Shown here: positions 7,554 to 45,916 of the stretch, in pieces
How positions within the stretch are numbered: the first letter of the stretch is position 1
Layout of the letters: each line of letters starts with the position of its first letter
DNA from: Pseudonocardiaceae bacterium
GTDB taxonomy: Bacteria > Actinomycetota > Actinomycetes > Mycobacteriales > Pseudonocardiaceae
Assembly (NCBI GenBank): GCA_050699595.1
Contig: JBOHFI010000028.1
Span: 2,427 to 66,426, forward strand
DNA length: 64,000 bases
Direction of reading: 5' to 3'
The notes under the pieces: model-generated
The model's input: the letters and a program-made list of their open reading frames with translations, nothing else
Databases searched by the model: none
What the model was told of the DNA's origin: nothing
Program-made: the position numbers and the translations under genes

Positions 7554-7895
7554 TCAGGCGGACTCGCGAAGGACCCGTCGAGCGATCTGCTCGACCTGCT
7601 CGACGGTGAGCACCGTCGCGGCGCCGCCTAGCAGGGCGTCGCGTAGGAGCCGACGAATCAGCGCCGACGGTGACACCTGCTCGGCGGTCGCACGCGCTCT
7701 GAGCTGTGTGTCCAGTTCACGGGTGATGCGCAGCGAGAACGCTACATCCAGCGCCGCGGCGTTCTCGGCCGCCTCGATCTCTGCGGCCTCCGCCTCCTCC
7801 TCGCCGTACTCCTCTCGCACCGCCCGCACCTCGGCTGCTAAGGTATCCTCGTCGTAACGGGTGTTCGTGTCATCGCTGCCTCGCTCGTATGTCAT
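7554..7895 (-). CDS. ribbon-helix-helix (CopG/BrnA-like) antitoxin candidate
   Basis: 113 aa with an acidic N-terminal half and C-terminal RITRELDTQLRARATAEQVSPSALIRRLLRDAL (RHH signature). It overlaps the 3' end of the upstream small ORF. Confidence 0.6.
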   Translation of the reverse strand: MTYERGSDDTNTRYDEDTLAAEVRAVREEYGEEEAEAAEIEAAENAAALDVAFSLRITRELDTQLRARATAEQVSPSALIRRLLRDALLGGAATVLTVEQVEQIARRVLRESA

Positions 7896-8193
7896 GGCCA
7901 GGCCTGCCCTTCGTAGTCACGCAGATCGGTGCCGCTCTCTTCCACGCCGTAACCCCGGCGTGCGCGCCACCGGTGGCGATAATCGTGATGACGAACCCAG
8001 CGCTCGGCGAGTAGCCGATGATCCGTACAGCACCGGTGCGGCTCTTTGGATCAGGGTCACGTTCGACCCGGCGCGGATCCGTCGCCGCCTCCAACGTCCA
8101 CGCGGGCTGGATGTTCACCGCGCCGGGGTAGCGGTCACTGCGCCGGCGGATGTACTCCGCGTCCGCGTCTCGCCACCACAGGTCATCCACCAC
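7870..8193 (-). CDS. putative toxin partner (BrnT-like gene order, toxin first); C-terminus possibly frameshifted
   Basis: MVDDLWWRDADAEYIRRRSDRYPGAVNIQPAWTLEAATDPRRVERDPDPKSRTGAVRIIGYSPSAGFVITIIA... An alternative frame at the 3' end reads ESGTDLRDYEGQAWP* and terminates in an ATGA overlap with the antitoxin start at 7895. Confidence 0.4.
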   Translation of the reverse strand: MVDDLWWRDADAEYIRRRSDRYPGAVNIQPAWTLEAATDPRRVERDPDPKSRTGAVRIIGYSPSAGFVITIIATGGAHAGVTAWKRAAPICVTTKGRPGHDIRARQR

Positions 8194-35818: not shown

Positions 35819-37015
35819 TTAGATGAAACCCTGCCTCAGGGTCGCGACGGAGACGTGCGGCCAGCCCACATTTGTCGGAAGATTGTTTGCGACCTCGAAG
35901 TTCAGGATGGTCATCTGCGCGTACTGAAGTTGTTTGAAGGGCGGGAGGAGCTTGCGGCTGACTTTCTCGATCCAGAATGTGGCGTAGACCAGCGCGGTCT
36001 CGGCATTCGGCCCCAGTTTTCCGGCTGGTTCGCCACCCTCGAGGAAAGGGATGTTCCGGACACCGCCGGTCACGTCTAGGGGGCTCACGTCGACAGTCGG
36101 ATCGCCGGGTGGCGGCAATCGATGACTGTTGGCTTTCTTGAAAAACGTGATTTTTGCCTGGCTCGCGATATTGAGTGCGACTCCCTCGAAGGTGTCCCCG
36201 TCGGCGACCTGCTGATTGATGACGGCTTGGAGGAGTTTGATCGGGTCGTTGACCACGTCCTGCATGGGTACGCCGTTGATCTGCTTGGGAAGGGGAGGCT
36301 CGGGTGGGTTGGTCCTGAAGGGCGTCCGGGGATTGTCAATGCCTTCGGGGATGGTGAGGTCGTACTCCGGAAATGGTTTAGGCGCGGGCGTGGACAGCTT
36401 CTCCGAGGTTCCCGGCGCGTGGATGATCTGTGGGGGTATGATGAACGGGGTACTGTTGAATGAGGGGAACTGGGAGAACGCGTATTCCGCGGCGGGAGTC
36501 TTGAGGGTCGGCGGGCCGGTGAAGTTTTGGGCCGTGCCCTGGGCGAGTATGGAGGTACCATGGGGGATCGATCCCAATCGGGCTACGATCTGCCCGCCCG
36601 GGGGAGCCGACTCCGGCGGGTAGGTCGTCGGCGGCTGCGTGATCCAGAGTCCGGGTTCGATGTGGAGCAGGCCTCCGGTGGAGGCGTCGGTGATCTGTTG
36701 AAGATAGGTCAAGCCGAATAGGTCGATGTCATCCTGCCCGAACCCTCGGTTCGGGACCGACGCGTTGATGGGATCGAATTTCAACGTTTCCCGTGTTTGA
36801 TTGAGTTGAAGATACAGATCAGCCTTATCTTTGCCGGCCGGCCGCTTGATGTTATCGTGGAAATCCGGTCGCGCGATGAGGTTGAATCCGGTCCCCTGCC
36901 AGGTTCCGGCGAGTTCCCCGAGAAGCCCCAGATTGCCGAGGATGGTAGTGTTGTCAAGTGCGAGCCGAACCGAGTTTATGCCTATGTCGACCGGAATCCC
37001 GCCTGGTGTTGACAT
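35819..37015 (-). CDS. hypothetical protein; N-terminus resembles nitrobindin/THAP4-type heme-binding beta-barrel (weak)
   Basis: 398 aa with LGLLGELAGTWQGTGFNLIARP near the N-terminus. It is Pro-rich and its GC is clearly lower than the neighbours. Confidence 0.6.
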   Translation of the reverse strand: MSTPGGIPVDIGINSVRLALDNTTILGNLGLLGELAGTWQGTGFNLIARPDFHDNIKRPAGKDKADLYLQLNQTRETLKFDPINASVPNRGFGQDDIDLFGLTYLQQITDASTGGLLHIEPGLWITQPPTTYPPESAPPGGQIVARLGSIPHGTSILAQGTAQNFTGPPTLKTPAAEYAFSQFPSFNSTPFIIPPQIIHAPGTSEKLSTPAPKPFPEYDLTIPEGIDNPRTPFRTNPPEPPLPKQINGVPMQDVVNDPIKLLQAVINQQVADGDTFEGVALNIASQAKITFFKKANSHRLPPPGDPTVDVSPLDVTGGVRNIPFLEGGEPAGKLGPNAETALVYATFWIEKVSRKLLPPFKQLQYAQMTILNFEVANNLPTNVGWPHVSVATLRQGFI

Positions 37016-37210: not shown

Positions 37211-37933
37211 ATGATCAGACCGGCGGTGGCTCTGGGCGTGGCGGGGACCATGGCCGCCGCTGTCGGCTGGGCCGCTCCGGTGTTGCTCCGGGACCGGGTG
37301 CTGCGCGCGGCGGTGTGGCCTGGCCTGGCCGGTATCGGCCGGCCGGGCGGCGTGGCGTTGACTTTCGACGACGGACCCGACCCCGATGGCACCCCCGCGG
37401 TGCTCGACGCGCTGGATCGACTCGGCTGGACCGCCACGTTCTTCATGCTCGGTGCACAGGTGATGCGCTATCCGGACGTGGCGGCGGCGGTGGTGGCCGC
37501 TGGGCATGAAGCCGCGGTACACGGGTTCAGCCACCGCAACCACCTGGCCCGTGGGCCGGCCGACGTGCACCGGGACGTGGTGCGCGCCGCGGCGGTGATC
37601 GCTGCGGTGACCGGAGCGCGGCCGAGGTGGTTCCGGCCACCCTACGGCGTGCTCACGCTGGGGTCGCTGATCGCGGCCCGTCGCGCCGGGTTGCGTCCGG
37701 TGCTGTGGACGGCGTGGGGCCGGGACTGGGAAGCCCGCAGCCCGGCCCAGGTGGCGAACACCGTCGGAGGACACCTCAGGCCGGGCGGCACGGTTCTGCT
37801 GCACGACTCGGACTGTGTGGCCCGGGTGGCCGGTAGCTGGCGGAGCACTGTGCAGGCGCTACCCCGGCTGGCTGAGCTCGCCGATCAGCTGGGCTGCGTG
37901 GTCGGACCGCTGCGCGACCACTTCGCCGAGTAG
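37211..37933 (+). CDS. polysaccharide deacetylase (NodB homology domain)
   Basis: VALTFDDGPDPDGTPAVLDAL...ATFFMLG...GHEAAVHGFSH...RPPYG...TVLLHD. Confidence 0.85.
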   Translation: MIRPAVALGVAGTMAAAVGWAAPVLLRDRVLRAAVWPGLAGIGRPGGVALTFDDGPDPDGTPAVLDALDRLGWTATFFMLGAQVMRYPDVAAAVVAAGHEAAVHGFSHRNHLARGPADVHRDVVRAAAVIAAVTGARPRWFRPPYGVLTLGSLIAARRAGLRPVLWTAWGRDWEARSPAQVANTVGGHLRPGGTVLLHDSDCVARVAGSWRSTVQALPRLAELADQLGCVVGPLRDHFAE

Positions 37934-37938
37934 GCCCA
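37877..37938 (+). repeat. 62-nt direct repeat copy 1 (deacetylase 3' end plus stop)
   Basis: ctcgccgatcagctgggctgcgtGgtcggaccgctgcgcgaccacttcgccgagtaggccca is identical to 45855-45916 except for one base. Confidence 0.9.
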
Positions 37939-38258: not shown

Positions 38259-38879
38259 TCAGGCGAGGTCACGCGGACGGTCGTCCTTGGACGGACGCCA
38301 ATAGCCCGGCTTTTCGACCTCCCCCACCGGAATGAATCCGATGCCAAGGTTCACTGCCATCTCATCGTTGTTATCCGATATCGGCGTCCTGGCATGGACG
38401 ACTTCTTTGGCGTGAAAAATGATGACTTCTCCGGGCTCATGCACGATCGCGACCGGTTCGGGCCCGTGCGGAAACAGCAGAAGACCCGAGCGTCGTTCGG
38501 AAAAATATTCATGACGAAGCATGATGGTGACGTTAATCGTGAAATCACCGGTATCGAGATGTGGCGGGATATGACTTTTCGGGACATCGTAATAGCGATA
38601 ATTCCCGTGCCCGCTGGCGGTCGCCGGCATGGAATTTTCGTTTACGAAGGACGTCAATTCTTCGGAGTCGCGTAGCGCCTTTCCTGCAGGCCCCAGATCG
38701 GCGAAGTGCTGCGTGCGGTTCTGTGCCGCTCCTTCGCGTTGCTCCGCCGCTTCCCGCTGCAGGTCGGCGAATAGCTCCTCGGTCAGCCAGGCGGGACGAC
38801 CGAGGTAGAACACCCCGTCCTGTCGTCCTATCGGCCTCGTCGCGCGAGTGTCGGCCAAAGCTCGAGTTGCACCGGTCAC
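38259..38879 (-). CDS. hypothetical protein, possible Fe(II)/2-oxoglutarate-dependent oxygenase fold
   Basis: 206 aa with an H-x-D (PHLDTGD) and a distal His/Arg (EVVHARTP) spaced as in the 2OG-oxygenase jelly roll. GC is about 50-55%. The functional call is weak. Confidence 0.5.
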   Translation of the reverse strand: MTGATRALADTRATRPIGRQDGVFYLGRPAWLTEELFADLQREAAEQREGAAQNRTQHFADLGPAGKALRDSEELTSFVNENSMPATASGHGNYRYYDVPKSHIPPHLDTGDFTINVTIMLRHEYFSERRSGLLLFPHGPEPVAIVHEPGEVIIFHAKEVVHARTPISDNNDEMAVNLGIGFIPVGEVEKPGYWRPSKDDRPRDLA

Positions 38880-38996
38880 CGCAGGCCTCCCTTCGTCATC
38901 TTATGTAGAGACCGGAACCGAGTTCATGAACGCTATCACACCGCTAGCGGCCCGAGAAACAACTTGGCGACTAGCCGCCATCGTCACAACAAACCA

Positions 38997-39026
38997 TTGA
39001 CAGTCCATTGCGTAGCTGCGTAGCGT
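38997..39026 (+). promoter_or_regulatory. promoter candidate with a tandem 8-mer in the spacer
   Basis: TTGACA (38997-39002), 18 nt, TAGCGT (39021-39026). The spacer contains tgcgtagc twice in tandem (39009-39024). Confidence 0.35.
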
Positions 39027-39066
39027 TTGTACCGTGCCTATTTGACGATCAGAGAGGAGGTGTTCG

Positions 39067-39213
39067 ATGCACGAGGAAATGAACCAGGCAAGCGACGCCG
39101 GTGACGCGATTCCCGCCCCGCTGAATCACCCCGATGCCTTCCTGGTGTTCGAGTGGGACACAACTCAGTGCGACACAACCCAGAAGGGCGACGAGGGCGA
39201 ATCTGGCCGCTGA
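39067..39213 (+). CDS. unannotated 48-codon ORF: candidate RiPP precursor peptide
   Basis: agagaggagg-N6-ATG. MHEEMNQASDAGDAIPAPLNHPDAFLVFEWDTTQCDTTQKGDEGESGR*. It lies 180 nt upstream of the YcaO gene on the same strand and is below the 60-aa cut-off of the supplied ORF track. Confidence 0.45.
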   Translation: MHEEMNQASDAGDAIPAPLNHPDAFLVFEWDTTQCDTTQKGDEGESGR

Positions 39214-39256
39214 ATGTCGAGCAGTCCGACGCTCGGTTGCCGCAGTTCAACATGAG

Positions 39257-39301
39257 CAAGCTGCGTTCTCGCAAGCCTCGGCCACACGAGAACGCAGCTT
39301 G
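39257..39301 (+). terminator. 15-bp perfect stem-loop between the small ORF and the YcaO gene (attenuator or partial terminator candidate)
   Basis: caagctgcgttctcg (39257-39271) pairs with cgagaacgcagcttg (39287-39301) around a 15-nt loop. Confidence 0.5.
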
Positions 39302-39393
39302 TCCGAGAGTTACCTGCACCATGTCCGAGCACGTCGGTATTGACGAACCCTGGCGCCAACGCGGGCGCGGTGGATCGCTCGAAGGGTCCGAGT

Positions 39394-41664
39394 ATGACAA
39401 GCAGAAACTGCCATCCACGTCTGATCCGCGTTGATATCATCGCCCACCCCGATGGTGGTGTAGTGGTGACAACTCCACAGGGCAAGGCCTTCCGCGTCCA
39501 CCTTGATGAAGCCGAGTTGACGAACGTTCTCGTGGCCTGTGACGGACAGACCCCACTGCGAGATATCGTCAGTGATCGCGCTCAGTCAGACGAACTTCGC
39601 GCCTTGTTGGAGATGCTTCACGCCGAGGGTTGCTTGTCTAGTTCGGCATCGAAAACCAACATCGAGGACTGGGTCCGCTTCGGCGACTCGGTCACCGACT
39701 CTGACCGACCGTCTCGCACTGATCTGGTAGTGGTTGGATCCGGTCGTCTCGCCTCTACCGCAGCTGAATTGTTGCACAGTGTTTTCGGGAAACGGTTCGG
39801 CAGTGCACGGTCTATTGCGTCGCCTGCCGAGCTAACCCGAGGTGACCAGACGGCGGACACGGTGATGTTGGTGTTCGCTGACCAGTTCGACCATTCTATG
39901 CTCACCGCCATCGACCACGACCGCAGACAAGACGGCCGCTGGTGGTCGTACTTCTACTTCGATGTGCAGCGAGGCTGGTTCGGTCCTCACTCGCAGCCCG
40001 GTCGTGGGCCGAGCTTCGCCGACTCGTACGCCCGCAGGCTGGCTGCCGCAGCCGACCCGGCAGCGATCCGAGGGCGGGAAACTCGCTCGCATACATGGGA
40101 CGAGTATCTGCCACCGCACCCAGAGTTGGTATGGATGTTGTCGGCCTACCTCATCGACGTCGAACGGTGGCTCGCCGGCACCCCAGCGCTCGGACTTTGG
40201 CATGAGGTCGAGCTCAACCCGATCGCCATGCACATCACTCGCTGTCCGGTACTGCCTCTGCCTGACTCGCCGCCGGCACATCTTCCGCGTGGGCTGGTGC
40301 CCGATCCGACCGAAATGCTTCTCAATGCCCGCCTGGGAATTGTCACCAGCCTCTCCATGGTCGCGCCTCACCCGTCTGTGCCCACACTGACGACGATCAA
40401 GGCTGCCGGTTGCGACATCAGCCGCGTACGTCCATGGAACAACGATCCCGTCGGTGGCGGAAGCAGCTTCGGTGACGTCGATCGTGCGCGGGAAGCCGCC
40501 ATCGGCGAACTTGTCGAGCGTTACTGCGGTAACATCGTCCGCCCCGACTTGCTCAGCTGGGCGACCTTCGACGAGCTAGCAGCCGCAGGCGAGCATGCGG
40601 TGGATCCAGACAGTCTGGCCCTGTTCTCACAGCGCCAATACGCCGCGTCTGGCTTTCCGTTCGTCCCGTTGACCCGCGACACGCCAATCCACTGGGTACG
40701 TGGCCGGTCGCTGACCAGAGACGTGGCAGCCTGGTTACCGGCCAGCCTGGTCTATATCAATTGGTACAACACACCGTGGGGTACGGGTGACCCGCCCACG
40801 AACGGCACGTTCCACCCCGGGGTGGCTACTGGTTCGACTCTGCACAACTCTGTGGCCTCCGGGCTGCAGGAGATCATCGAACGACACGCCACGATGGTGT
40901 GGTGGCTCAATCGCCAGCCATTACGTGCTGTGAAAGCCGCCTCGGAAATTCACTCAGTCTGGCGGAACCGCGTGTCGGACGATCAGCTGCGCGCCTGGCT
41001 GATCCATATCGACAACGAGTTCTCCGTTCCAGTGATGGCGGGTGTCGTCGAAGACACGGCGCAGTCTTTTTTCACGATCGGGTTCGCCGCGCGCGCCACC
41101 CCCGAGGAAGCCGCCTTGAAGGCATGGGCCGAGGGGGTGATCCTTCAGGAAGTCAGCCGAGAACTACAGTCGCCGACGAGTGCCTACAGTTCAGCAATCG
41201 CCCGTGGCCGGCTACCAGACCAGGGGCTCAAGCCGTGGCGGGCAGATCGGCGGTACCTCGACGACTATCGTGCTGATTTCCATGATGTCGTGACATTGAT
41301 CTGTCAAAGCCAGATCTATCTCGACCCCAGGGCCGCGGAGCTCGTACGACCGTGGGTCGATGTCCCCGTCGACCGGTCGATGCTGGATCTGCCGCGGCTT
41401 AAGTCTGGAAGCCTGGCCGCTGTACAAGCCGCTGTACAAGTCGCTGGGTACGAGATCTTCTACGCCGACATCACCACGCCCGATGTCGCGGCCGCAGGGT
41501 TGAGCGTCACCCGGACTCTCGTGCCGGGCACGATCGCGAACTCCCCCGCAGCCTTCCCCTTCCTTGGTGGCCGCGTCGTGCAGGACAGTGCGGTCCGGCT
41601 TGGATGGCAGTCCCGTCCCCTGTCGGAAGCCGAACTAACCACGATTCCGTTGCCGCATACGTAG
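39394..41664 (+). CDS. fused E1-like (SagC/Ocin-ThiF-like) / YcaO-domain enzyme
   Basis: C-terminal half: GGGSSFGDVDRAREAAIGELVERYCG ... GVATGSTLHNSVASGLQEIIERHATMVWW (YcaO ATP/Mg-binding blocks). N-terminal ~330 aa contain a Rossmann-like LVVVGSGRLASTAAELL. The start is either 39394 or 39340. Confidence 0.8.
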   Translation: MTSRNCHPRLIRVDIIAHPDGGVVVTTPQGKAFRVHLDEAELTNVLVACDGQTPLRDIVSDRAQSDELRALLEMLHAEGCLSSSASKTNIEDWVRFGDSVTDSDRPSRTDLVVVGSGRLASTAAELLHSVFGKRFGSARSIASPAELTRGDQTADTVMLVFADQFDHSMLTAIDHDRRQDGRWWSYFYFDVQRGWFGPHSQPGRGPSFADSYARRLAAAADPAAIRGRETRSHTWDEYLPPHPELVWMLSAYLIDVERWLAGTPALGLWHEVELNPIAMHITRCPVLPLPDSPPAHLPRGLVPDPTEMLLNARLGIVTSLSMVAPHPSVPTLTTIKAAGCDISRVRPWNNDPVGGGSSFGDVDRAREAAIGELVERYCGNIVRPDLLSWATFDELAAAGEHAVDPDSLALFSQRQYAASGFPFVPLTRDTPIHWVRGRSLTRDVAAWLPASLVYINWYNTPWGTGDPPTNGTFHPGVATGSTLHNSVASGLQEIIERHATMVWWLNRQPLRAVKAASEIHSVWRNRVSDDQLRAWLIHIDNEFSVPVMAGVVEDTAQSFFTIGFAARATPEEAALKAWAEGVILQEVSRELQSPTSAYSSAIARGRLPDQGLKPWRADRRYLDDYRADFHDVVTLICQSQIYLDPRAAELVRPWVDVPVDRSMLDLPRLKSGSLAAVQAAVQVAGYEIFYADITTPDVAAAGLSVTRTLVPGTIANSPAAFPFLGGRVVQDSAVRLGWQSRPLSEAELTTIPLPHT

Positions 41665-41679
41665 GTCTGAGAGCAGCAG

Positions 41680-41831
41680 TCGGTCCGAGGCCGCGTCCAG
41701 CCCGGGGTCTGCTTGAACAGACGAAACGTGTGCTCGAGACTGAAACGGCGTAGGAATGCCTGCCAGCAACGATCGACTTCGGCCGGGGTGGCGTCCACAC
41801 CCGGCCACCGCAACCAGACCGGCTGGTTCAC
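41680..41831 (-). pseudogene. DDE transposase internal fragment
   Basis: NQPVWLRWPGVDATPAEVDRCWQAFLRRFSLEHTFRLFKQTPGWTRPR is a block I recognise from actinomycete DDE transposases (IS701-like). Only about 50 codons are present. Confidence 0.4.
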
Positions 41832-41837
41832 TTCACC

Positions 41838-42647
41838 TCATAAGAGCCACTGGCGCGCGGCGATGAACCCGGCCTGAAACCGGCTCTTGGCTCCGAGATG
41901 ATCGAGAATTTCACCCATGCGGCGGCTGATCGTGCGATCCGATATGTGTAGATTTCGTGCCGCAACCGTACTGGTCGATCCGGCCGCCAACTCGGCGACG
42001 ATATCCTTGAGATGCTGCGGCATCGGATCCACCGGCGACATTTCGATATGAGCCTGTATTGCAGACCAGAGAAAATCATGACACGCTGTCAGCAGATTCA
42101 CGGCATCCTGGTCCCGAACGACTAGCAGTCGCGGCCGACGATCTCTTTCCTGAAGCTCCGACAGCAACGCGATATCCCGGTTGAGGGCCATGAGCGGCAG
42201 CTGGATCGGAAGGTATCGAACAGCATCATTAACGCCGTTTGGTTGCGGGGATCGTTGGGTGGGGGTCCGCCCTGCCGGATCGGTCGACTCGAGGATACGG
42301 GACGATCTTGCCGCATCGTCCTTGCCCATGAGGCCTACACAAAACAGCAGCAAATTGATGCTGTGCGGCGATCCTCGACCGATGGTTAATCGTTGGACGA
42401 TCGGATCTGGGCATGCGGAATCGCTGTAGACAGATTGGCGGTACTCGCTGGAAAAACGCTCGATCTCACTCTTGTCGGAAAGGTGAGAGACTGCGGGCAG
42501 CTGTTGAACTCGGCGGGTCACTTCCTGAAGGATTGACGCGGCCAACAGCTCCAGATAGCCTACGCCGACCGCGACGGTATTGGGGGTGCCGGCTGATGTG
42601 GTAGATGTCCGTGCCGGAGAGATCCTTGGTGGTGAAGGCCTCGACAT
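41838..42647 (-). CDS. LuxR-family (GerE-type HTH) regulator; N-terminal domain unknown
   Basis: C-terminal LKDIVAELAAGSTSTVAARNLHISDRTISRRMGEILDHLGAKSRFQAGFIAARQWLL. The start is uncertain (ATG 42647 chosen; the ORF is open to 42917). GC is lower than surroundings. Confidence 0.6.
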   Translation of the reverse strand: MSRPSPPRISPARTSTTSAGTPNTVAVGVGYLELLAASILQEVTRRVQQLPAVSHLSDKSEIERFSSEYRQSVYSDSACPDPIVQRLTIGRGSPHSINLLLFCVGLMGKDDAARSSRILESTDPAGRTPTQRSPQPNGVNDAVRYLPIQLPLMALNRDIALLSELQERDRRPRLLVVRDQDAVNLLTACHDFLWSAIQAHIEMSPVDPMPQHLKDIVAELAAGSTSTVAARNLHISDRTISRRMGEILDHLGAKSRFQAGFIAARQWLL

Positions 42648-43798
42648 GTTCGCGGGAACCGGACGCGGTGAAAACGACCCCCCGACGGCCTGCACGTTCC
42701 CTCCTCCGCGTCTCAGAGCCGCACACCCGAGCCGGCGACGGGCAGGTGTTGGATGTGGCGATCGAACCAGCCGGGCATCTGGAGCGGAGACCGAAGGTCG
42801 CGGGCCTGAGCCGGGCATCGTGGGCAGCGGAACCGTCCATCCATCCCTGCTCCGTGACCGAGAGCCAACACCATGATCGGCCCTCTCGTCGCGGTCCAGT
42901 CGCATCCCCGTGGCCACCCCTCCGACCCGGCGTTCAGATCAGCAATCATCATGCGTGGTATCATAAGCTCATATGAACACGGTTTGTCAACGTGTTGTGT
43001 CCGCTCACCTCCGGCTACCGTCAGCTTGGATCGGGGGCTGTAGGCCCTTGCAGGTGATGCCGCTCGCAGGGACGTACAGCTATGGTCCGTGTCGAGAGAT
43101 TCGCGGCGACCCGGCGCGCTTCCTGCCGCGTTCAATGTTGGGCAAAAGCAGCAGAGAGTCGATTTGATTGGCGCCGTGAGTACCCCAGCCCAAGCGGTAT
43201 CCCGGCCTCCTCGACGGGCATCGATTCTGGTCCGTGCGTACCGGGATCCACCGGAGAGAGGGGGCCGTCAGACTATTGCGTCTGGACGCAGCAAGCCCGA
43301 TCGGCATGTGGAGGAGGTTGGTGATCTATGTCCACGAGATGATCGATGAAGAGATTCTGGCTCGTCGTGAGCTCGATAAAGCTATGCCAGCGCATCGCTG
43401 CTCGGCGTAGCCGGTTCACCTTGCTGGGTGGAGCGCCAGCGCGTCTGGGTGCGGTCGCAGAACTCAGCGTAGGTCAGGTCTGTGGGGGATCCTCCGGCGC
43501 CGGCCGGCCGGCTGCTCGCAGTATGTCCAGCTCCGCAGCCGGCGCTTCTAGCTCGCCACCGGCACGCGGATGACACGCCTGCCGACACGCATCCCCAGGC
43601 GGGTTTCGACTCCCGGCAACAGTTATGATAAGATCAAGAGGAGTGTTGGTTGCCTGCAAGCGCGAAGACGCGAGGTCCAGTTGGGTCGCGAAGGTATGGA
43701 CCGCGTAGCCTGACTGGGACGGCGCTTCGGTAAAATCACCCTATTGTGCAGGACACGTTGAATCGGACCTGAGCAGTCCGGTCGGTTGGAGGTGGCCG

Positions 43799-45835
43799 TT
43801 GACCACGACCAATGACGGAGCGGAGCGTAAGCGAGACCAACTGGATGCCGAACGGTGTCGGTTGCGGTATGCGCGGGAATGCCTGACGCGCAACCGTGAG
43901 GAAATGCTTCGCATGGCCGAGTCGATGGTAGCACGTGGCGACGACGAGGAGATGATCGCCTGGCTGTATCGTAGGGCTTTCCAACTGGAAGACCGTGACG
44001 ATGCGCCGCTGTTCTTCGGTCGGATTGACGGCCCTTTGCCCGACCCCGTCTACATCGGACGTCGCTACGTCGCGGACGGCGACAACGAGCCAGCGGTGAT
44101 CGACTGGCGCACCGAGATGGCAACACGATTCTATCGGGCCACGGCCGCTCAGCCCATGAAAGTCACGCGCCGCCGTCGGTACGGCTTCTCCGACGAGCAG
44201 GAGATGACCAGCTTCGACGACGAGCAGCTTGCGGACATGGCCGCAGACGCAGGCCTGAGTGTTTTTGTACGTCAGGAGATCGAACTGGCCCACTACGGGC
44301 CGATGCGAGACATCGTGGCAACAATCCAACCCGACCAGGACCACATTGTCCGGCTCGGCGCGGGTGACTCCCTGGTTGTGCAGGGTGGACCCGGCACAGG
44401 CAAGACCGCTGTCGGGCTACACCGTGCGGCGTTCCTGTTGTTCGAGTACCGCCAGGTGCGACAACAGGGTGTACTCGTGGTAGGGCCCAACGACACATTC
44501 GTGCACCACATCTCCCGTGTGCTCCCTACTTTGGGGGAAATCGAGTGCAAACACGTGTCGCTAGCCGGGCTGGTCGGGGCAGACCGTGCCCCGACAGAGG
44601 ACCCGGACGTGGCCAAGTTGAAAGGCGACGCGCGATTGGCGACCGTGCTCGGGCGCGCGCTTTGGTCGACGGTGGGTCGAGCGCATGATGACTTTGTCGT
44701 CACCAACACCAGCCCCTATATCCGGGTCTACCCGGAAGAACTCGTCCGCCTTTCCAGGGACCTCATCGCAGACCGCAAGGATTTCGGTTCTGCCCGGGAG
44801 CTCATGCGGGAGCGGGTTGCCAATCGGGTGCGCCGCAAGCTGGAACTGCGAGGCCGCTCCCTCAGCGATACCGCGACCCGCAAGCTCGCGCGCGCGCAAC
44901 AGACCCGTGTGCTGGTGGAGTCGATCTGGCCGGTGCTCAAGCCGCGCGATGTGCTGTTCCGGTTGTACTCCGATGCGAGGCACCTCGCCCGGTGCGCCAA
45001 GGGAGTGCTCGACGAACAGGAACAGCAGGCGCTGCAGTGGGCCGAGCCACCCGCAACCGCCGCCAAAGCGCAGTGGACTGCGGCCGATCATGTTCTCCTC
45101 GACGAACTGGCCTCACTCCTAGACGCCCAGCCCCGATTCGGTCACGTCGTACTCGACGAGGCTCAGGACCTCTCCGCCATGCAGTTGCGCGCGGTGGGTC
45201 GCCGCTGCCGGGGCACAGCTACTATTCTTGGCGACCTCGCGCAGCAGACGACACCGTGGGGGCTACCTTCCTGGCACGCTGTCCTCGGCGTGTTGGGAAG
45301 GCCTGGCGAGGTCGTTACTCTCCACACCAGCTACCGTGTACCACAGCAGATTCTTGATATTGCCAACCGGCTGCTCGGCGAGATCGCCCCGGACCTGCCC
45401 CCCACCACCTCTGCCCGCTCGGCAGCGGATGCAGTCGTGCTGATCGCCGCGCCGTTATCCAGCGGAAGTGGCCCGATCGCAGTTGCACGCATCATCGCCG
45501 GGATAGTTCGAACGCTGCCAGTGGAGAGGGGCAGCGTTGGAGTTATCGTTGCCGACCCCGACGCCGAGCAGCTGCGCAGAGCCCTGGGCGCCGAGGGTAT
45601 CGAGCCTGTAAACGCTGACGAGGTGGATCGCGATAGGCGGCTGGCTCTAGTTCCTGTCGGCACGGTCAAGGGAATGGAATTCGACAATGTGCTGGTGGTC
45701 GACCCTCACCGTGTGATCGAGATGGGGGAAACCGGCATGCGACTGCTTTACGTCGCTCTGACCCGAGCAATATCGCAGCTCACAATTATACATACCGCCG
45801 CGTTGCCCGAGGTACTCGGTCTCGCTTCTGTGTGA
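43799..45835 (+). CDS. UvrD-like superfamily-1 helicase of the HelD type
   Basis: TTG 43799 after ggagg. N-terminal coiled-coil (AERKRDQLDAERCRLRYARECL...), motif I QGGPGTGKTAVGLHR, motif II VVLDEAQDLS and C-terminal KGMEFDNVLVVDPH...LLYVALTRA. Confidence 0.8.
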   Translation: MTTTNDGAERKRDQLDAERCRLRYARECLTRNREEMLRMAESMVARGDDEEMIAWLYRRAFQLEDRDDAPLFFGRIDGPLPDPVYIGRRYVADGDNEPAVIDWRTEMATRFYRATAAQPMKVTRRRRYGFSDEQEMTSFDDEQLADMAADAGLSVFVRQEIELAHYGPMRDIVATIQPDQDHIVRLGAGDSLVVQGGPGTGKTAVGLHRAAFLLFEYRQVRQQGVLVVGPNDTFVHHISRVLPTLGEIECKHVSLAGLVGADRAPTEDPDVAKLKGDARLATVLGRALWSTVGRAHDDFVVTNTSPYIRVYPEELVRLSRDLIADRKDFGSARELMRERVANRVRRKLELRGRSLSDTATRKLARAQQTRVLVESIWPVLKPRDVLFRLYSDARHLARCAKGVLDEQEQQALQWAEPPATAAKAQWTAADHVLLDELASLLDAQPRFGHVVLDEAQDLSAMQLRAVGRRCRGTATILGDLAQQTTPWGLPSWHAVLGVLGRPGEVVTLHTSYRVPQQILDIANRLLGEIAPDLPPTTSARSAADAVVLIAAPLSSGSGPIAVARIIAGIVRTLPVERGSVGVIVADPDAEQLRRALGAEGIEPVNADEVDRDRRLALVPVGTVKGMEFDNVLVVDPHRVIEMGETGMRLLYVALTRAISQLTIIHTAALPEVLGLASV

Positions 45836-45854
45836 ACGCCCTCGCCCGCCCTCG

Positions 45855-45916
45855 CTCGCCGATCAGCTGGGCTGCGTCGTCGGACCGCTGCGCGACCACT
45901 TCGCCGAGTAGGCCCA
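45855..45916 (+). repeat. 62-nt direct repeat copy 2: displaced deacetylase 3' end
   Basis: 61/62 identical to 37877-37938. Confidence 0.9.

What the first reader, a model, noticed from the sequence alone, without database searches (positions are those of the whole stretch)
38259..41664. Minimal YcaO module with an unannotated 48-aa candidate precursor, a post-ORF hairpin and a divergent oxygenase-like gene
Directly seen: a 48-codon ORF (39067-39213) has one of the best Shine-Dalgarno sequences in the window (agagaggagg, 6-nt spacer). Its C-terminal half is rich in Thr/Cys (FEWDTTQCDTTQKGDEGESGR). A 15-bp perfect stem-loop follows (39257-39301), and then a fused E1-like/YcaO gene. Established knowledge: YcaO enzymes ATP-activate peptide backbone amides for azoline, thioamide or amidine formation on Cys/Ser/Thr-containing cores. 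Precursor genes are typically short, unannotated and followed by a partial terminator that raises the precursor:enzyme transcript ratio. No FMN dehydrogenase, TfuA, protease or transporter is present, so this would be an unusually minimal RiPP-like unit, possibly with hydroxylation by the divergent 2OG-like enzyme. It is carried on a recently inserted island.
Basis: partly seen in the sequence, partly recalled or inferred. Interest (0 to 1): 0.75.

Follow-up and report, generated by a model that had tools for sequence, protein, structure and literature searches.

The report
Uncharacterised YcaO peptide cluster on island
A 48-codon gene and the peptide-modifying YcaO enzyme next to it form a small natural-product (RiPP) gene cluster on an 8-kb inserted island; the peptide belongs to a widespread family with no name in the libraries and papers I could search, and its conserved histidine and tryptophan residues do not fit the usual YcaO chemistry.

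Summary
All the described features are present. The 48-aa ORF (39067-39213) is a real, conserved gene. Homologous 28-51-aa ORFs lie directly upstream of orthologous fused RRE/E1-like/YcaO genes in at least 52 of 91 loci from Actinomycetota, Chloroflexota and Acidobacteriota.

Family pattern:
- Consensus M-[IF]-x-x-I...L-A-P-(N)-x-N-H-H-x6-F-x-W, followed by 1-3 residues.
- Trp is invariant. Ala-Pro, His and Phe are at least 90% conserved.

A stem-loop after the precursor stop codon is a family trait. The window's copy shows two compensatory pair changes against its closest relative. The divergent 206-aa gene is an Fe(II)/2OG oxygenase by fold and by an invariant HxD...H triad. The island is real: 63-nt direct repeats lie 7,978 bp apart, and GC is about 0.62 against 0.70 outside.

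- The Thr/Cys-rich tail is a variable follower.
- The Cys comes from a 15-nt tandem duplication specific to this lineage.
- Relatives also carry PNPOx-like, prolyl-oligopeptidase, JmjC and MFS genes, so the minimal layout is probably derived.
- GenBank already annotates the ORF as hypothetical.

The chemistry is unresolved. The default is ATP-dependent cyclodehydration (-18 Da), but no Ser, Thr or Cys is conserved across the family. Pfam, NCBIfam and the papers I could search do not describe this peptide family.

The parts
37876..37938 (.). Left copy of the 63-nt direct repeat. It is the true 3' end of the polysaccharide deacetylase gene (37211-37933) and marks the left island boundary.
   Evidence: the repeat finder family D1: 2 copies, 98% identical, 7,978 bp apart. 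Sequences read. Pfam Polysacc_deac_1 for the host gene.
38259..38879 (-). Fe(II)/2-oxoglutarate-dependent oxygenase, 206 aa, GTG start. It is transcribed divergently from the precursor gene and is probably a peptide hydroxylase.
   Evidence: AlphaFold2 pLDDT 90.1. Foldseek PDB top hits are HalD/HalB, a BesD-type hydroxylase, OGFOD1, P4H, PHD2 and SnoN (E 2e-7 to 7e-6, TM 0.52-0.68). H107-x-D109...H162 is invariant in 19 homologues. The Pfam Tet_JBP match is only 15.8 bits, below the cut-off. The gene sits next to ycaO in every subfamily locus, L081-L090.
38997..39026 (+). Putative promoter of the precursor/ycaO operon: TTGACA (38997-39002), 18-nt spacer, TAGCGT (39021-39026).
   Evidence: Read directly. 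Both hexamers and the spacing are conserved in L085-L087 (TTGACA-18-TAGCAT) in alignment A2. The consensus scan did not call it. This is an inference.
39051..39060 (+). Shine-Dalgarno sequence agagaggagg, 6 nt before the ATG.
   Evidence: It is conserved as GAGGAG in L085-L087. On its own it is not statistically unusual.
39067..39213 (+). Precursor peptide gene, 48 aa: MHEEMNQASDAGDAIPAPLNHPDAFLVFEWDTTQCDTTQKGDEGESGR. Proposed leader is residues 1-18, ending in Ala-Pro. The conserved core is LNHPDAFLVFEW(D). The follower is acidic and variable, and includes a lineage-specific 15-nt duplication (DTTQC|DTTQK).
   Evidence: Orthologous ORFs in L085, L088, L090, L081, L082-84, L001 and L091. Family HMM hits in 52 sequences, all on the + strand upstream of ycaO. 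76 protein clusters in the 5.8-billion protein set. Synonymous changes are frequent at conserved codons. The duplication is visible in alignment A2.
39257..39301 (+). Conserved RNA stem-loop (15-bp perfect stem, 15-nt loop) starting 43 nt after the precursor stop codon. Probably an attenuator or a 3'-end stabiliser.
   Evidence: pair I8. Two compensatory G:C to A:T pair changes against L085-87. A related hairpin is present in L088. Family-wide enrichment of stems after the precursor: 52% of loci against 2.2% of random windows for stems of 9 bp or more. No Rfam match.
39340..41664 (+). Fused RRE / E1-like / YcaO cyclodehydratase. The ORF starts at TTG 39340 (774 aa); the alternative start is ATG 39394 (756 aa). 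Domains: RRE about residues 30-95, E1-like about 128-330, YcaO about 370-774.
   Evidence: Pfam PF02624. TIGR03604 above its cut-off. Alignment A1 with invariant GE-x-x-ER and E-x-x-ER motifs. Profile match to LynD/TruD/MusD. AF2 pLDDT 85 with a strand-strand-strand/helix-helix-helix N-terminus. Foldseek best hits LynD, TruD and MusD, E 5e-36 to 2e-29.
41838..42917 (-). LuxR/GerE-type regulator. The ORF is 359 aa. The part homologous to the cluster regulators of relatives is 41841-42563.
   Evidence: Pfam GerE 6e-5 (23.0 bits, just under the 23.5-bit cut-off). tblastn gives 59% identity to the L085 regulator and 33% to the L088 regulator, at the same position relative to ycaO.
43799..45835 (+). 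UvrD-like superfamily-1 helicase carried on the island. It travels with the module in the closest relative. Its role is unknown and it is probably not biosynthetic.
   Evidence: Pfam UvrD_C, UvrD-helicase and UvrD_C_2. 83% identical to the helicase next to the module in L085.
45854..45916 (.). Right copy of the 63-nt direct repeat. It marks the right island boundary.

Best explanation
This is a compact gene cluster for a ribosomally made, post-translationally modified peptide (RiPP). It sits on a 7.98-kb island inserted at the 3' end of a polysaccharide deacetylase gene.

Shown:
- The 48-aa ORF is a conserved peptide gene paired with a fused RRE/E1-like/YcaO enzyme.
- An Fe/2OG oxygenase and a LuxR-type regulator are conserved with the pair.
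- A conserved stem-loop follows the peptide gene.

Inferred mechanism:
1. A conserved promoter (TTGACA-18-TAGCGT) drives the peptide gene and ycaO.
2. The stem-loop terminates part of the transcripts or protects a short precursor mRNA, so the peptide is made in excess of the enzyme.
3. The N-terminal part of the peptide, up to the conserved Ile/Leu-Ala-Pro, docks on the winged-helix RRE of the enzyme.
4. The YcaO domain uses ATP to O-phosphorylate one backbone amide of the core. An intramolecular nucleophile attacks and phosphate leaves, giving a -18 Da cyclised product.
5. The oxygenase adds a hydroxyl (+16 Da). The core Pro of 'NHP' is the best guess for its target.
6. The leader is removed after the conserved Pro. 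Relatives encode a prolyl oligopeptidase for this. Here a host peptidase would be needed.

My working choice for the YcaO site in this window is Thr32/Thr33, directly after Phe-x-Trp-Asp, giving a methyloxazoline. They are the nearest conserved hydroxyl residues in the oxygenase-bearing subfamily. The site is not established. The only family-wide constants are His and Trp, not Ser, Thr or Cys.
For: Peptide gene:
- Orthologous small ORFs share MFEEIEK...ILAPQNHP...LSFVWDTT with the window peptide, upstream of YcaO genes 54-79% identical to the window's.
- The wider family pattern occurs upstream of YcaO homologues in at least 52 of 91 sequences from three phyla.
- The family profile finds 76 clusters in 5.8 billion proteins.
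- Synonymous changes are frequent at conserved codons, for example 9 synonymous against 2 non-synonymous between L088 and L090.

Enzyme:
- TIGR03604 scores above its cut-off.
- ATP/Mg motifs are invariant.
- The architecture matches LynD, TruD and MusD by profile and by fold, with a canonical RRE topology.

Hairpin:
- Two compensatory pair changes against L085-87.
- Family-wide enrichment after the precursor stop.

Oxygenase:
- Fold and iron-binding triad.
- It is restricted to this subfamily, and all those cores contain a Pro after His.
- Precedent: an Fe/2OG peptide hydroxylase acts in a YcaO RiPP cluster (CzlI, PMC11575548).

Other:
- The regulator is conserved in position.
- An S9 peptidase is encoded in four subfamily loci (L081, L088-L090). 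More distant S9 homologues (27-32% identical) lie near ycaO in eight Actinomycetaceae loci, and the Pro before the core is conserved.
Against: - There is no experimental product.
- No Ser, Thr or Cys position is conserved across the family. One member (L021, core HNHAVQAAVFGWN) has none.
- The window peptide has none between the Pro and the Trp. The Ser at position W-3 in relatives is Val here.
- This lineage has lost the PNPOx-like gene that is translationally coupled to ycaO in sister clusters, and it has lost the peptidase. The pathway may be truncated or changed.
- The hairpin has no U-tract.
- With the window subfamily left out of the HMM, the window peptide itself is not detected. It is linked to the wider family through intermediates: L001 at 1e-4, L082 at 4e-4 and L090 at 3e-3.
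- The C-terminal motif is PLPHT, not a full PxPxP.
Confidence: 0.8

Rival explanations
1. The Thr/Cys-rich C-terminal half (TTQCDTTQKGDEGESGR) is the core, and the YcaO installs several azolines there (thiazoline at Cys35, oxazolines at Thr32/33/37/38). This would be a minimal linear azoline peptide.
For: The enzyme is SagD/TOMM-type and resembles cyanobactin heterocyclases. In the window, the only Ser, Thr or Cys residues after the conserved Pro lie in this tail. 'WDTT' is shared by most of the subfamily.
Against: - The tail after Trp-Asp-Thr-Thr varies in length and sequence among relatives.
- The wider family has only 1-3 residues after the Trp.
- Cys35 and Thr37/38 come from a 15-nt duplication that the 79%-identical relative lacks.
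- In the two-cassette precursor of L008 the next leader starts right after 'QWG', which places the core end at the Trp.
Confidence: 0.15
2. The YcaO carries out non-canonical chemistry on the invariant residues. It activates a backbone amide near the conserved Phe-x-Trp or Asn-His, and the attacking group is not a Ser, Thr or Cys side chain. Candidates are indole C2 of Trp (a Bischler-Napieralski-type closure to a dihydro-beta-carboline), the His imidazole or Asn carboxamide nitrogen, or the new N-terminal amine after cleavage behind Pro (an amidine, as in klebsazolicin, bottromycin and streptamidine).
For: - Trp is invariant, and His, Ala-Pro and Phe are at least 90% conserved.
- The spacing is fixed: the last His lies 9 residues before Trp, and Pro to Trp is mostly 11-13 residues.
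- No Ser, Thr or Cys is conserved, and one core has none.
- Amidine formation by YcaO enzymes that have E1-like partners is documented (PMC8442711).
Against: - All characterised fused E1-like/YcaO enzymes make azolines from Cys, Ser or Thr. This rests on established knowledge and on the LynD/TruD/MusD matches.
- 39 of 40 unique cores contain at least one Ser, Thr or Cys, often at W-3 or W-4.
- No paper in the searchable library reports carbon nucleophiles for YcaO.
- The conserved His and Trp could serve recognition or bioactivity instead.
Confidence: 0.2
3. The cluster is a decaying remnant. After losing the PNPOx-like partner, the peptidase and the exporter, the island copy no longer makes a mature product.
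For: PNPOx, S9 peptidase, JmjC, MFS and methyltransferase genes are present in sister clusters but absent from the whole window. The Ser at W-3 is replaced by Val, and the follower carries a duplication.
Against: - The YcaO, oxygenase, regulator and peptide ORFs are all intact and keep every family-invariant residue.
- The same reduced gene set persists in a relative at 79% YcaO identity. That relative keeps the promoter, Shine-Dalgarno site and hairpin, with compensatory changes.
- Many distant family members have only the precursor and ycaO close together.
Confidence: 0.1
4. The inverted repeat at 39257-39301 is a DNA operator for the LuxR-type regulator, not an RNA element.
For: It is a perfect palindrome, and a regulator is encoded in the cluster. 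Concerted changes in both arms would also preserve a dimer-binding site.
Against: It lies downstream of the peptide gene, not at the promoter. Unrelated sequences form stems at the same position across the family. A 15-bp stem with a variable loop is typical of an RNA hairpin.
Confidence: 0.1

Closest known systems
Cyanobactin heterocyclases PatD/TruD/LynD and MusD (fused RRE/E1-like/YcaO; PDB 4BS9, 4V1T, 7U58)
   Same: Same three-domain architecture and length (about 750-780 aa). They are the best sequence-profile and fold matches. The ATP/Mg motifs are conserved. A short peptide gene lies just upstream. One relative (L008) even has two leader-core cassettes in one precursor, as cyanobactin precursors do.
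   Different: Only about 19-20% identity. There are no PatA/PatG-type subtilisin proteases or macrocyclase. The core is not Cys/Ser/Thr-rich. The conserved motifs (Ala-Pro, Asn-His-His, Phe-x-Trp) are unrelated to cyanobactin recognition sequences. Hosts are actinomycetes, not cyanobacteria.
Linear azol(in)e peptides / TOMM systems (SagBCD, McbBCD)
   Same: The YcaO scores above the TIGR03604 SagD-family cut-off. The E1-like domain resembles McbB and MccB.
   Different: There is no SagB-type FMN dehydrogenase in the island. Sister clusters carry a PNPOx-like split-barrel protein instead. The C and D functions are fused. The core is not rich in heterocyclisable residues.
Streptamidine (ami) family, PMC8442711
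   Same: A widespread actinobacterial family of YcaO-associated short peptides. Its cores also lack Ser/Thr/Cys-rich stretches and contain His. It was overlooked by annotation and was found by looking for small ORFs next to ycaO.
   Different: Streptamidine uses a standalone YcaO (AmiD) plus a separate AmiB, a hydrolase, a dehydrogenase and Fec-type transporters. Its precursor motifs centre on ALV/HLSATH. That survey analysed only standalone YcaOs, so it did not cover fused enzymes like this one.
Curacozole / YM-216391 clusters (PMC11575548)
   Same: An actinomycete YcaO RiPP cluster that includes an Fe/2OG (JmjC-type) oxygenase. That enzyme hydroxylates a residue of the precursor peptide, and an aromatic residue is required in the core.
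   Different: There the YcaO is standalone and works with an E1-like/dehydrogenase fusion. The product is a polyazole macrocycle from a Cys/Ser/Thr-rich core. The oxygenase here has a different, smaller double-stranded beta-helix fold, closer to BesD, P4H and OGFOD1.

Membership tests
YcaO superfamily, azoline-forming (TOMM/SagD-type) cyclodehydratase | YcaO domain scoring above the curated thresholds | tested here: met
   PF02624 at 164.9 bits against 25.7. TIGR03604 at 244.5 bits against 219.25.
YcaO superfamily, azoline-forming (TOMM/SagD-type) cyclodehydratase | Conserved acidic ATP/Mg2+-binding motifs (two E-x-x-E-R motifs) | tested here: met
   G389-E390-x-x-E393-R394 and E511-x-x-E514-R515 are invariant in 27 homologues. 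Assigning these motifs to ATP/Mg binding rests on established knowledge of YcaO structures.
YcaO superfamily, azoline-forming (TOMM/SagD-type) cyclodehydratase | Proline-rich C-terminal PxPxP motif | tested here: inconclusive
   The C-terminus is I-P-L-P-H-T (family consensus PLPHA). Two of the three prolines are present.
YcaO superfamily, azoline-forming (TOMM/SagD-type) cyclodehydratase | Substrate core with conserved Cys, Ser or Thr that become azolines | tested here: not met
   No Ser, Thr or Cys column is conserved in 40 unique cores. One core has none. The window has none between the Pro and the Trp. The enzyme may still work this way at variable positions.
YcaO superfamily, azoline-forming (TOMM/SagD-type) cyclodehydratase | ATP-dependent loss of 18 Da from the peptide | not testable with these tools
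   This needs co-expression or in vitro reconstitution followed by mass spectrometry.
Fused heterocyclase architecture (PatD/TruD/LynD type) | N-terminal RiPP recognition element plus an E1-like domain fused to YcaO | tested here: met
   The profile aligns from query residue 46-60 onward to TruD and MusD. The model shows three strands and three helices at residues 32-95, then an alpha/beta domain at 128-330. Full-length Foldseek matches to LynD, TruD and MusD; McbB and MccB match the N-terminal part.
Cyanobactins | PatA/PatG-type subtilisin proteases or macrocyclase, and their recognition sequences | tested here: not met
   None are in the island or in the relatives examined. Some relatives carry S9 prolyl oligopeptidases instead.
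Linear azol(in)e peptides | SagB-type FMN-dependent azoline dehydrogenase in the cluster | tested here: not met
   The Pfam and NCBIfam scans of island ORFs found no such hit. Relatives carry PNPOx_N-type proteins, which the window lacks.
Thioamidated RiPPs (YcaO-TfuA) | TfuA gene adjacent to ycaO | tested here: not met
   No TfuA in the island or in the annotated neighbourhoods of relatives.
Streptamidine-type clusters | Standalone YcaO with AmiB/AmiC/AmiE and ALV-motif precursors | tested here: not met
   The YcaO here is fused, the precursor motif is different, and there are no ami-type neighbours.
RiPP precursor peptide (generic) | Short ORF conserved next to the modifying enzyme, on the same strand, with a conserved leader and under purifying selection | tested here: met
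Fe(II)/2-oxoglutarate-dependent oxygenases (206-aa protein) | Double-stranded beta-helix fold with an HxD/E...H iron-binding triad | tested here: met
   pLDDT 90. There are 486 PDB matches at E 0.001 or better, and the top 50 are Fe/2OG oxygenases. H107, D109 and H162 are invariant. By sequence alone the Pfam match is below threshold: Tet_JBP at 15.8 bits against 34.9.
Integrated genomic island | Flanking direct repeats that duplicate the target site, and deviating base composition | tested here: met
   63-nt repeats, 98% identical, 7,978 bp apart, duplicating the 3' end of the deacetylase gene. GC 0.57-0.66 against about 0.70.
Integrated genomic island | Integrase or transposase on the element | tested here: not met
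   No recombinase domain in the ORFs scanned and no tRNA. A copy of the module in another metagenome lies next to Tn3 transposase fragments.

The most novel reading that the evidence does not exclude
The family-defining reaction may be a new kind of YcaO chemistry centred on the invariant Trp, or on the His placed 9 residues before it. One example is ATP-driven activation of the amide preceding Trp, followed by attack of indole C2. That would be an enzymatic Bischler-Napieralski cyclisation giving a peptide-embedded dihydro-beta-carboline, which the PNPOx-like flavoprotein of sister clusters could aromatise. Another example is an imidazole- or carboxamide-derived amidine. Either would define a new RiPP class present in hundreds of actinobacterial species, including human-associated Actinomyces, Mobiluncus and Varibaculum.
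Probability: 0.15. Interest if true: 0.9.

Novelty: new variant of a known kind. Interest (0 to 1): 0.65.

Why it matters
YcaO enzymes are a main source of new peptide backbone chemistry: azolines, thioamides, amidines and ATP-dependent cleavage. This window points to a large family that the sources I could search do not describe.

The peptide profile finds 76 clusters.
- Annotation: every named peptide in the family is labelled 'hypothetical' or 'uncharacterized' and none matches a Pfam or NCBIfam model.
- Substrate: the conserved residues (Pro, His, Phe-x-Trp at fixed spacing) do not look like a normal azoline substrate.
- Test system: the window cluster is small enough to test directly. It has four genes in under 5 kb: peptide, YcaO, Fe/2OG oxygenase and regulator.
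- Outcomes: if the chemistry is ordinary, this is a new family of small His/Trp-containing oxazoline peptides. If not, it extends the known range of YcaO reactions.
- Mobility: the case also shows a RiPP module moving as an 8-kb island with clear att-like repeats.

Tried and rejected
- Streptamidine membership. Rejected: that family has a standalone YcaO and ALV/HLSATH motifs.
- NCBIfam and Pfam names for the peptides. None found, even at E = 10.
- Literature. Seven full-text searches found no description of this family: streptamidine; YcaO with tryptophan/amidine/E1-like; YcaO with prolyl oligopeptidase; genus names; all YcaO papers since 2022; Bischler-Napieralski/carboline; PNPOx/F420/JmjC. 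Subscription journals are not covered, so a published description cannot be excluded.
- A universally conserved neighbour gene besides the peptide. All-against-all clustering of ORFs in 81 loci found none in more than 15 loci.
- A remnant of PNPOx, peptidase, JmjC, MFS or methyltransferase anywhere in the window. No tblastn hit at 1e-3.
- The hairpin as a dispersed repeat. The stem sequence occurs only at this site in the window.
- A known RNA family in the island. No Rfam hit at E of 1 or below.
- The island on known plasmids. No near match. Only distant YcaO relatives lie on Streptomyces plasmids.
- Transposase identity for the ORF at 41460-41831 (minus strand). No Pfam support.
- The Shine-Dalgarno site as independent evidence. 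It is not enriched over chance.
- A leave-one-subfamily-out HMM does not reach the window peptide directly. It reaches only L001, L082 and L090, with L081 marginal at E = 0.19.

Full report
**Observation**

The window is a high-GC actinomycete contig. The exact YcaO and peptide sequences occur in a Pseudonocardiaceae MAG.

- The ORF at 39067-39213 has 48 codons and follows agagaggagg with a 6-nt spacer.
- A perfect 15-bp stem with a 15-nt loop lies at 39257-39301. The local fold is -60.7 kcal/mol, z = -5.5.
- An ORF at 39340-41664 carries a YcaO domain. It scores above the curated cut-off of the SagD/TOMM model TIGR03604, at 244.5 against 219.25 bits.
- A 206-aa gene at 38259-38879 is transcribed divergently.

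The Shine-Dalgarno site alone is not remarkable: GGAGG-N4-9-ATG occurs 11 times in the window against 14.7 expected. The ORF is also already annotated in GenBank, as a hypothetical protein.

**Is the small ORF a gene?**

Yes. The YcaO has about 50 full-length homologues in the protein collection.

In the closest relatives (YcaO 54-79% identical) an ORF at the same place encodes a clearly homologous peptide:
- MHEEMEKATCTGEGPVAAPNHPDSFLVFEWDTTQKDGEVAGS
- MFEEIEKANDGRELLIAPQNHPDARLSFVWDTTAGTEETFSEETATESDTV
- MFEEIEKANDGREMILAPQNHPHAFLSFVWDTTAEPETDN
- MFEDIEKASEGQDEILAPQNHAHPFVSFVWDATDDRAAWDLS

More distant loci come from Actinomycetota, Chloroflexota, Holophagae and Acanthopleuribacter. They carry 28-45-aa ORFs directly upstream of ycaO with the same plan:
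- MIKRIAGSRVAKLLAPNNHHTSLGTTFSWKK
- MIKKIKERRWEKALAPNGNHHTHQLGSGITAIRWIKK
- MAEITITTVEEQRAAETVLAPNSNHHGHVATAFSWA

Further support:
- An HMM of these peptides hits 52 of 91 sequences, always on the ycaO strand and upstream. In the window it hits only this ORF.
- A profile search of 5.8 billion proteins finds 76 clusters. None has a Pfam domain, and every name a source gives is 'hypothetical' or 'uncharacterized'.
- Conserved residues are often encoded by different codons, for example 9 synonymous against 2 non-synonymous differences between L088 and L090 over 17 codons.

One caveat: with the window's own subfamily left out of the HMM, the window peptide is not reached directly. Only its relatives L001, L082 and L090 are reached. 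Its link to the wider family therefore runs through intermediates.

**Anatomy of the peptide family**

In an alignment of 27 members, Trp is invariant, and Ala-Pro, one His and the Phe at W-2 are at least 90% conserved. The last His lies 9 residues before Trp in most members. Pro to Trp is mostly 11-13 residues. In most members only 1-3 residues follow the Trp.

One Chloroflexales precursor (L008) holds two leader-core cassettes, and the second leader starts right after '...QWG'. The core therefore probably runs from just after the conserved Pro to about the Trp.

The long acidic tails of the window subfamily vary in length and sequence, as follower peptides do. The window's 'DTTQC DTTQK' is a 15-nt tandem duplication that the 79% relative lacks, so the Cys is lineage-specific.

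No Ser, Thr or Cys column is conserved. One core (HNHAVQAAVFGWN) has none. The window has none between the Pro and the Trp, because the Ser at W-3 in its relatives is Val here.

**The enzyme**

- Alignment A1 shows invariant GE-x-x-ER and E-x-x-ER motifs.
- A profile of the family matches the cyanobactin heterocyclases LynD, TruD and MusD at 1e-45 to 1e-47 from about residue 46 onward. The archaeal thioamidation YcaOs match only at 1e-13 to 1e-16.
- The AlphaFold2 model (pLDDT 85) has three strands and three helices at residues 32-95, which is the RiPP recognition element topology. An alpha/beta E1-like domain follows, then the YcaO domain.
- Its best PDB fold matches are LynD, TruD and MusD over the full length. 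McbB and MccB match the N-terminal part.
- The real start is either TTG 39340 or ATG 39394. The first 19 residues are predicted to be disordered and are not conserved.

**The hairpin**

The closest relative has the same stem with two G:C to A:T changes compensated on both arms. Phytomonospora has a related stem (AGCTGCGTTCC...) after its precursor gene.

Across 44 loci, a perfect stem of 9 bp or more lies within 120 nt after the precursor stop in 52%. The figure is 2.2% for 1,760 random windows from the same loci. For stems of 11 bp or more it is 43% against 0.5%.

There is no U-tract and no Rfam match. I read it as an RNA element that attenuates read-through or stabilises the precursor transcript. 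This is an inference from position and conservation.

**The other genes**

The 206-aa protein is modelled at pLDDT 90. It matches Fe/2OG oxygenases: HalD/HalB, a BesD-type hydroxylase, OGFOD1, prolyl hydroxylases and SnoN, at TM 0.52-0.68. H107-x-D109 and H162 are invariant. The HxD form points to a hydroxylase rather than a halogenase, on established knowledge.

Only about 20 clusters of this protein exist in the collection. It sits beside ycaO in every subfamily locus and nowhere else. The cores that go with it all have a Pro after the His (NHP, NHAHP). The two related cores without it (L001, L091) do not. This is a weak hint that the Pro is the target. An Fe/2OG peptide hydroxylase in a YcaO cluster has a precedent in CzlI (PMC11575548).

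A LuxR/GerE-type regulator follows ycaO on the opposite strand, as in relatives.

Sister clusters add several genes:
- a PNPOx_N-like protein whose stop overlaps the ycaO start
- an S9 prolyl oligopeptidase
- a JmjC_2 oxygenase
- an MFS_3 transporter
- a methyltransferase

None of these is anywhere in the window. PNPOx is present in the outgroups L001 and L091, so its absence here is most simply a loss. The S9 peptidases in four subfamily loci, together with more distant S9 homologues near ycaO in Actinomycetaceae loci, fit leader removal after the conserved Pro. This too is an inference.

**The island**

A 63-nt direct repeat (98% identical) lies at 37876-37938 and 45854-45916. It duplicates the last codons and the stop of a polysaccharide deacetylase gene. 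GC between the repeats is 0.57-0.66 against about 0.70 outside.

The island carries the oxygenase, the peptide gene, ycaO, the regulator and a UvrD-like helicase. The helicase also accompanies the module (83% identity) in another metagenome, next to Tn3 fragments. No integrase, transposase domain or tRNA was found.

**How it most likely works**

Shown: the parts and their conservation.

Inferred: promoter, hairpin-controlled excess of precursor, leader docking on the RRE, ATP-dependent O-phosphorylation of one backbone amide, ring closure with loss of phosphate (-18 Da), hydroxylation (+16 Da), and cleavage after Pro by a host peptidase.

The site is open. For this window I favour Thr32/33 directly after Phe-x-Trp-Asp, because a hydroxyl residue at W+3 is kept in the oxygenase-bearing subfamily. 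Across the family, however, only His and Trp are constant. A non-canonical nucleophile therefore stays a live rival.

**Comparison and novelty**

It works like a cyanobactin- or TOMM-type heterocyclase system and shares that architecture.
- It is not a cyanobactin: there are no PatA/G proteases.
- It is not a classical LAP: there is no SagB dehydrogenase.
- It is not a thioamitide: there is no TfuA.
- It is not streptamidine-type: that family has a standalone YcaO and other motifs (PMC8442711).

No curated model or paper in the searchable library describes the peptide family (and seven literature searches). Subscription journals could not be checked.

I rate it a new variant of a known kind. 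It is of real interest to RiPP specialists, and most of that interest depends on what the YcaO does to a core whose invariant residues are His and Trp.

Noticed in passing
window 37876-37938 and 45854-45916: A 63-nt direct repeat (98% identical), 7,978 bp apart, duplicates the 3' end of the polysaccharide deacetylase gene. It gives exact att-like boundaries for the low-GC island. No integrase, transposase domain or tRNA was found inside, so how the island moved is unexplained.
   Followed up: partly
window 39340-41664 and 38259-38879: The GenBank annotation of this MAG calls the YcaO as a 455-aa protein (P0004, starting at MPDPTEM) and the oxygenase as 184 aa (P0052). The continuous ORFs and the homologues indicate 756-774 aa and 206 aa. 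The RRE/E1-like half of the enzyme is therefore missing from the public protein record.
   Followed up: partly
window 39163-39192: A 15-nt tandem duplication (GACACAACTCAGTGC / GACACAACCCAGAAG) inside the precursor gene gives DTTQC-DTTQK. The closest relative (L085-87) has a single copy.
   Followed up: yes
L008 5327-5554: A Chloroflexales MAG precursor holds two complete leader-core cassettes in one ORF (RKVETRRWDKAIAPNHNHHTVPAAQWG, then VRKVEAQRWDKAIAPNHNHHTVPGPQWG). This resembles multi-cassette cyanobactin precursors.
   Followed up: no
L031, L039, L042 (about 7800-7940) and L036 7311-7523: More distant fused YcaO genes (34-37% identical) in Amycolatopsis and Streptomyces are preceded by peptides with 4-5 tandem VVHNRA repeats and no Trp, for example MISTVKANVVTAVVHNRAVVHNRAVVHNRAVVHNRSVAK. 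A Sorangium locus has a peptide with two ...TANPTPTITFGW repeats. These may be sister precursor families.
   Followed up: no
L088 5537-6004, L090 798-1274, L091 6540-7004: A PNPOx_N-like split-barrel protein of about 155 aa is translationally coupled to ycaO (overlapping stop and start) in sister clusters. The window and L085-87 lack it. It could be an unconventional flavin- or F420-dependent partner of the YcaO.
   Followed up: partly
window 43799-45835: A UvrD-like SF1 helicase travels with the RiPP module (83% identical in L085) but in a different orientation relative to the oxygenase gene. Its role on the island is unknown.
   Followed up: partly
window 35819-37015: A second low-GC patch (0.60) just left of the island encodes an FMP-type heme-binding protein (NF040572, 201 bits). 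It is separated from the island by the high-GC deacetylase gene and may be a separate acquisition.
   Followed up: no
P0092 (L068, Actinomyces gerencseriae) and L053-L075: One precursor cluster was seen on 249 contigs. Relatives occur in human-associated Actinomyces, Mobiluncus, Varibaculum and Arcanobacterium with HCHH...FAWK cores, so the family is common in host-associated actinomycetes.
   Followed up: no
window 42918-43798: About 880 bp between the regulator and the helicase have no ORF with any family match and no homologue in the related loci.
   Followed up: partly
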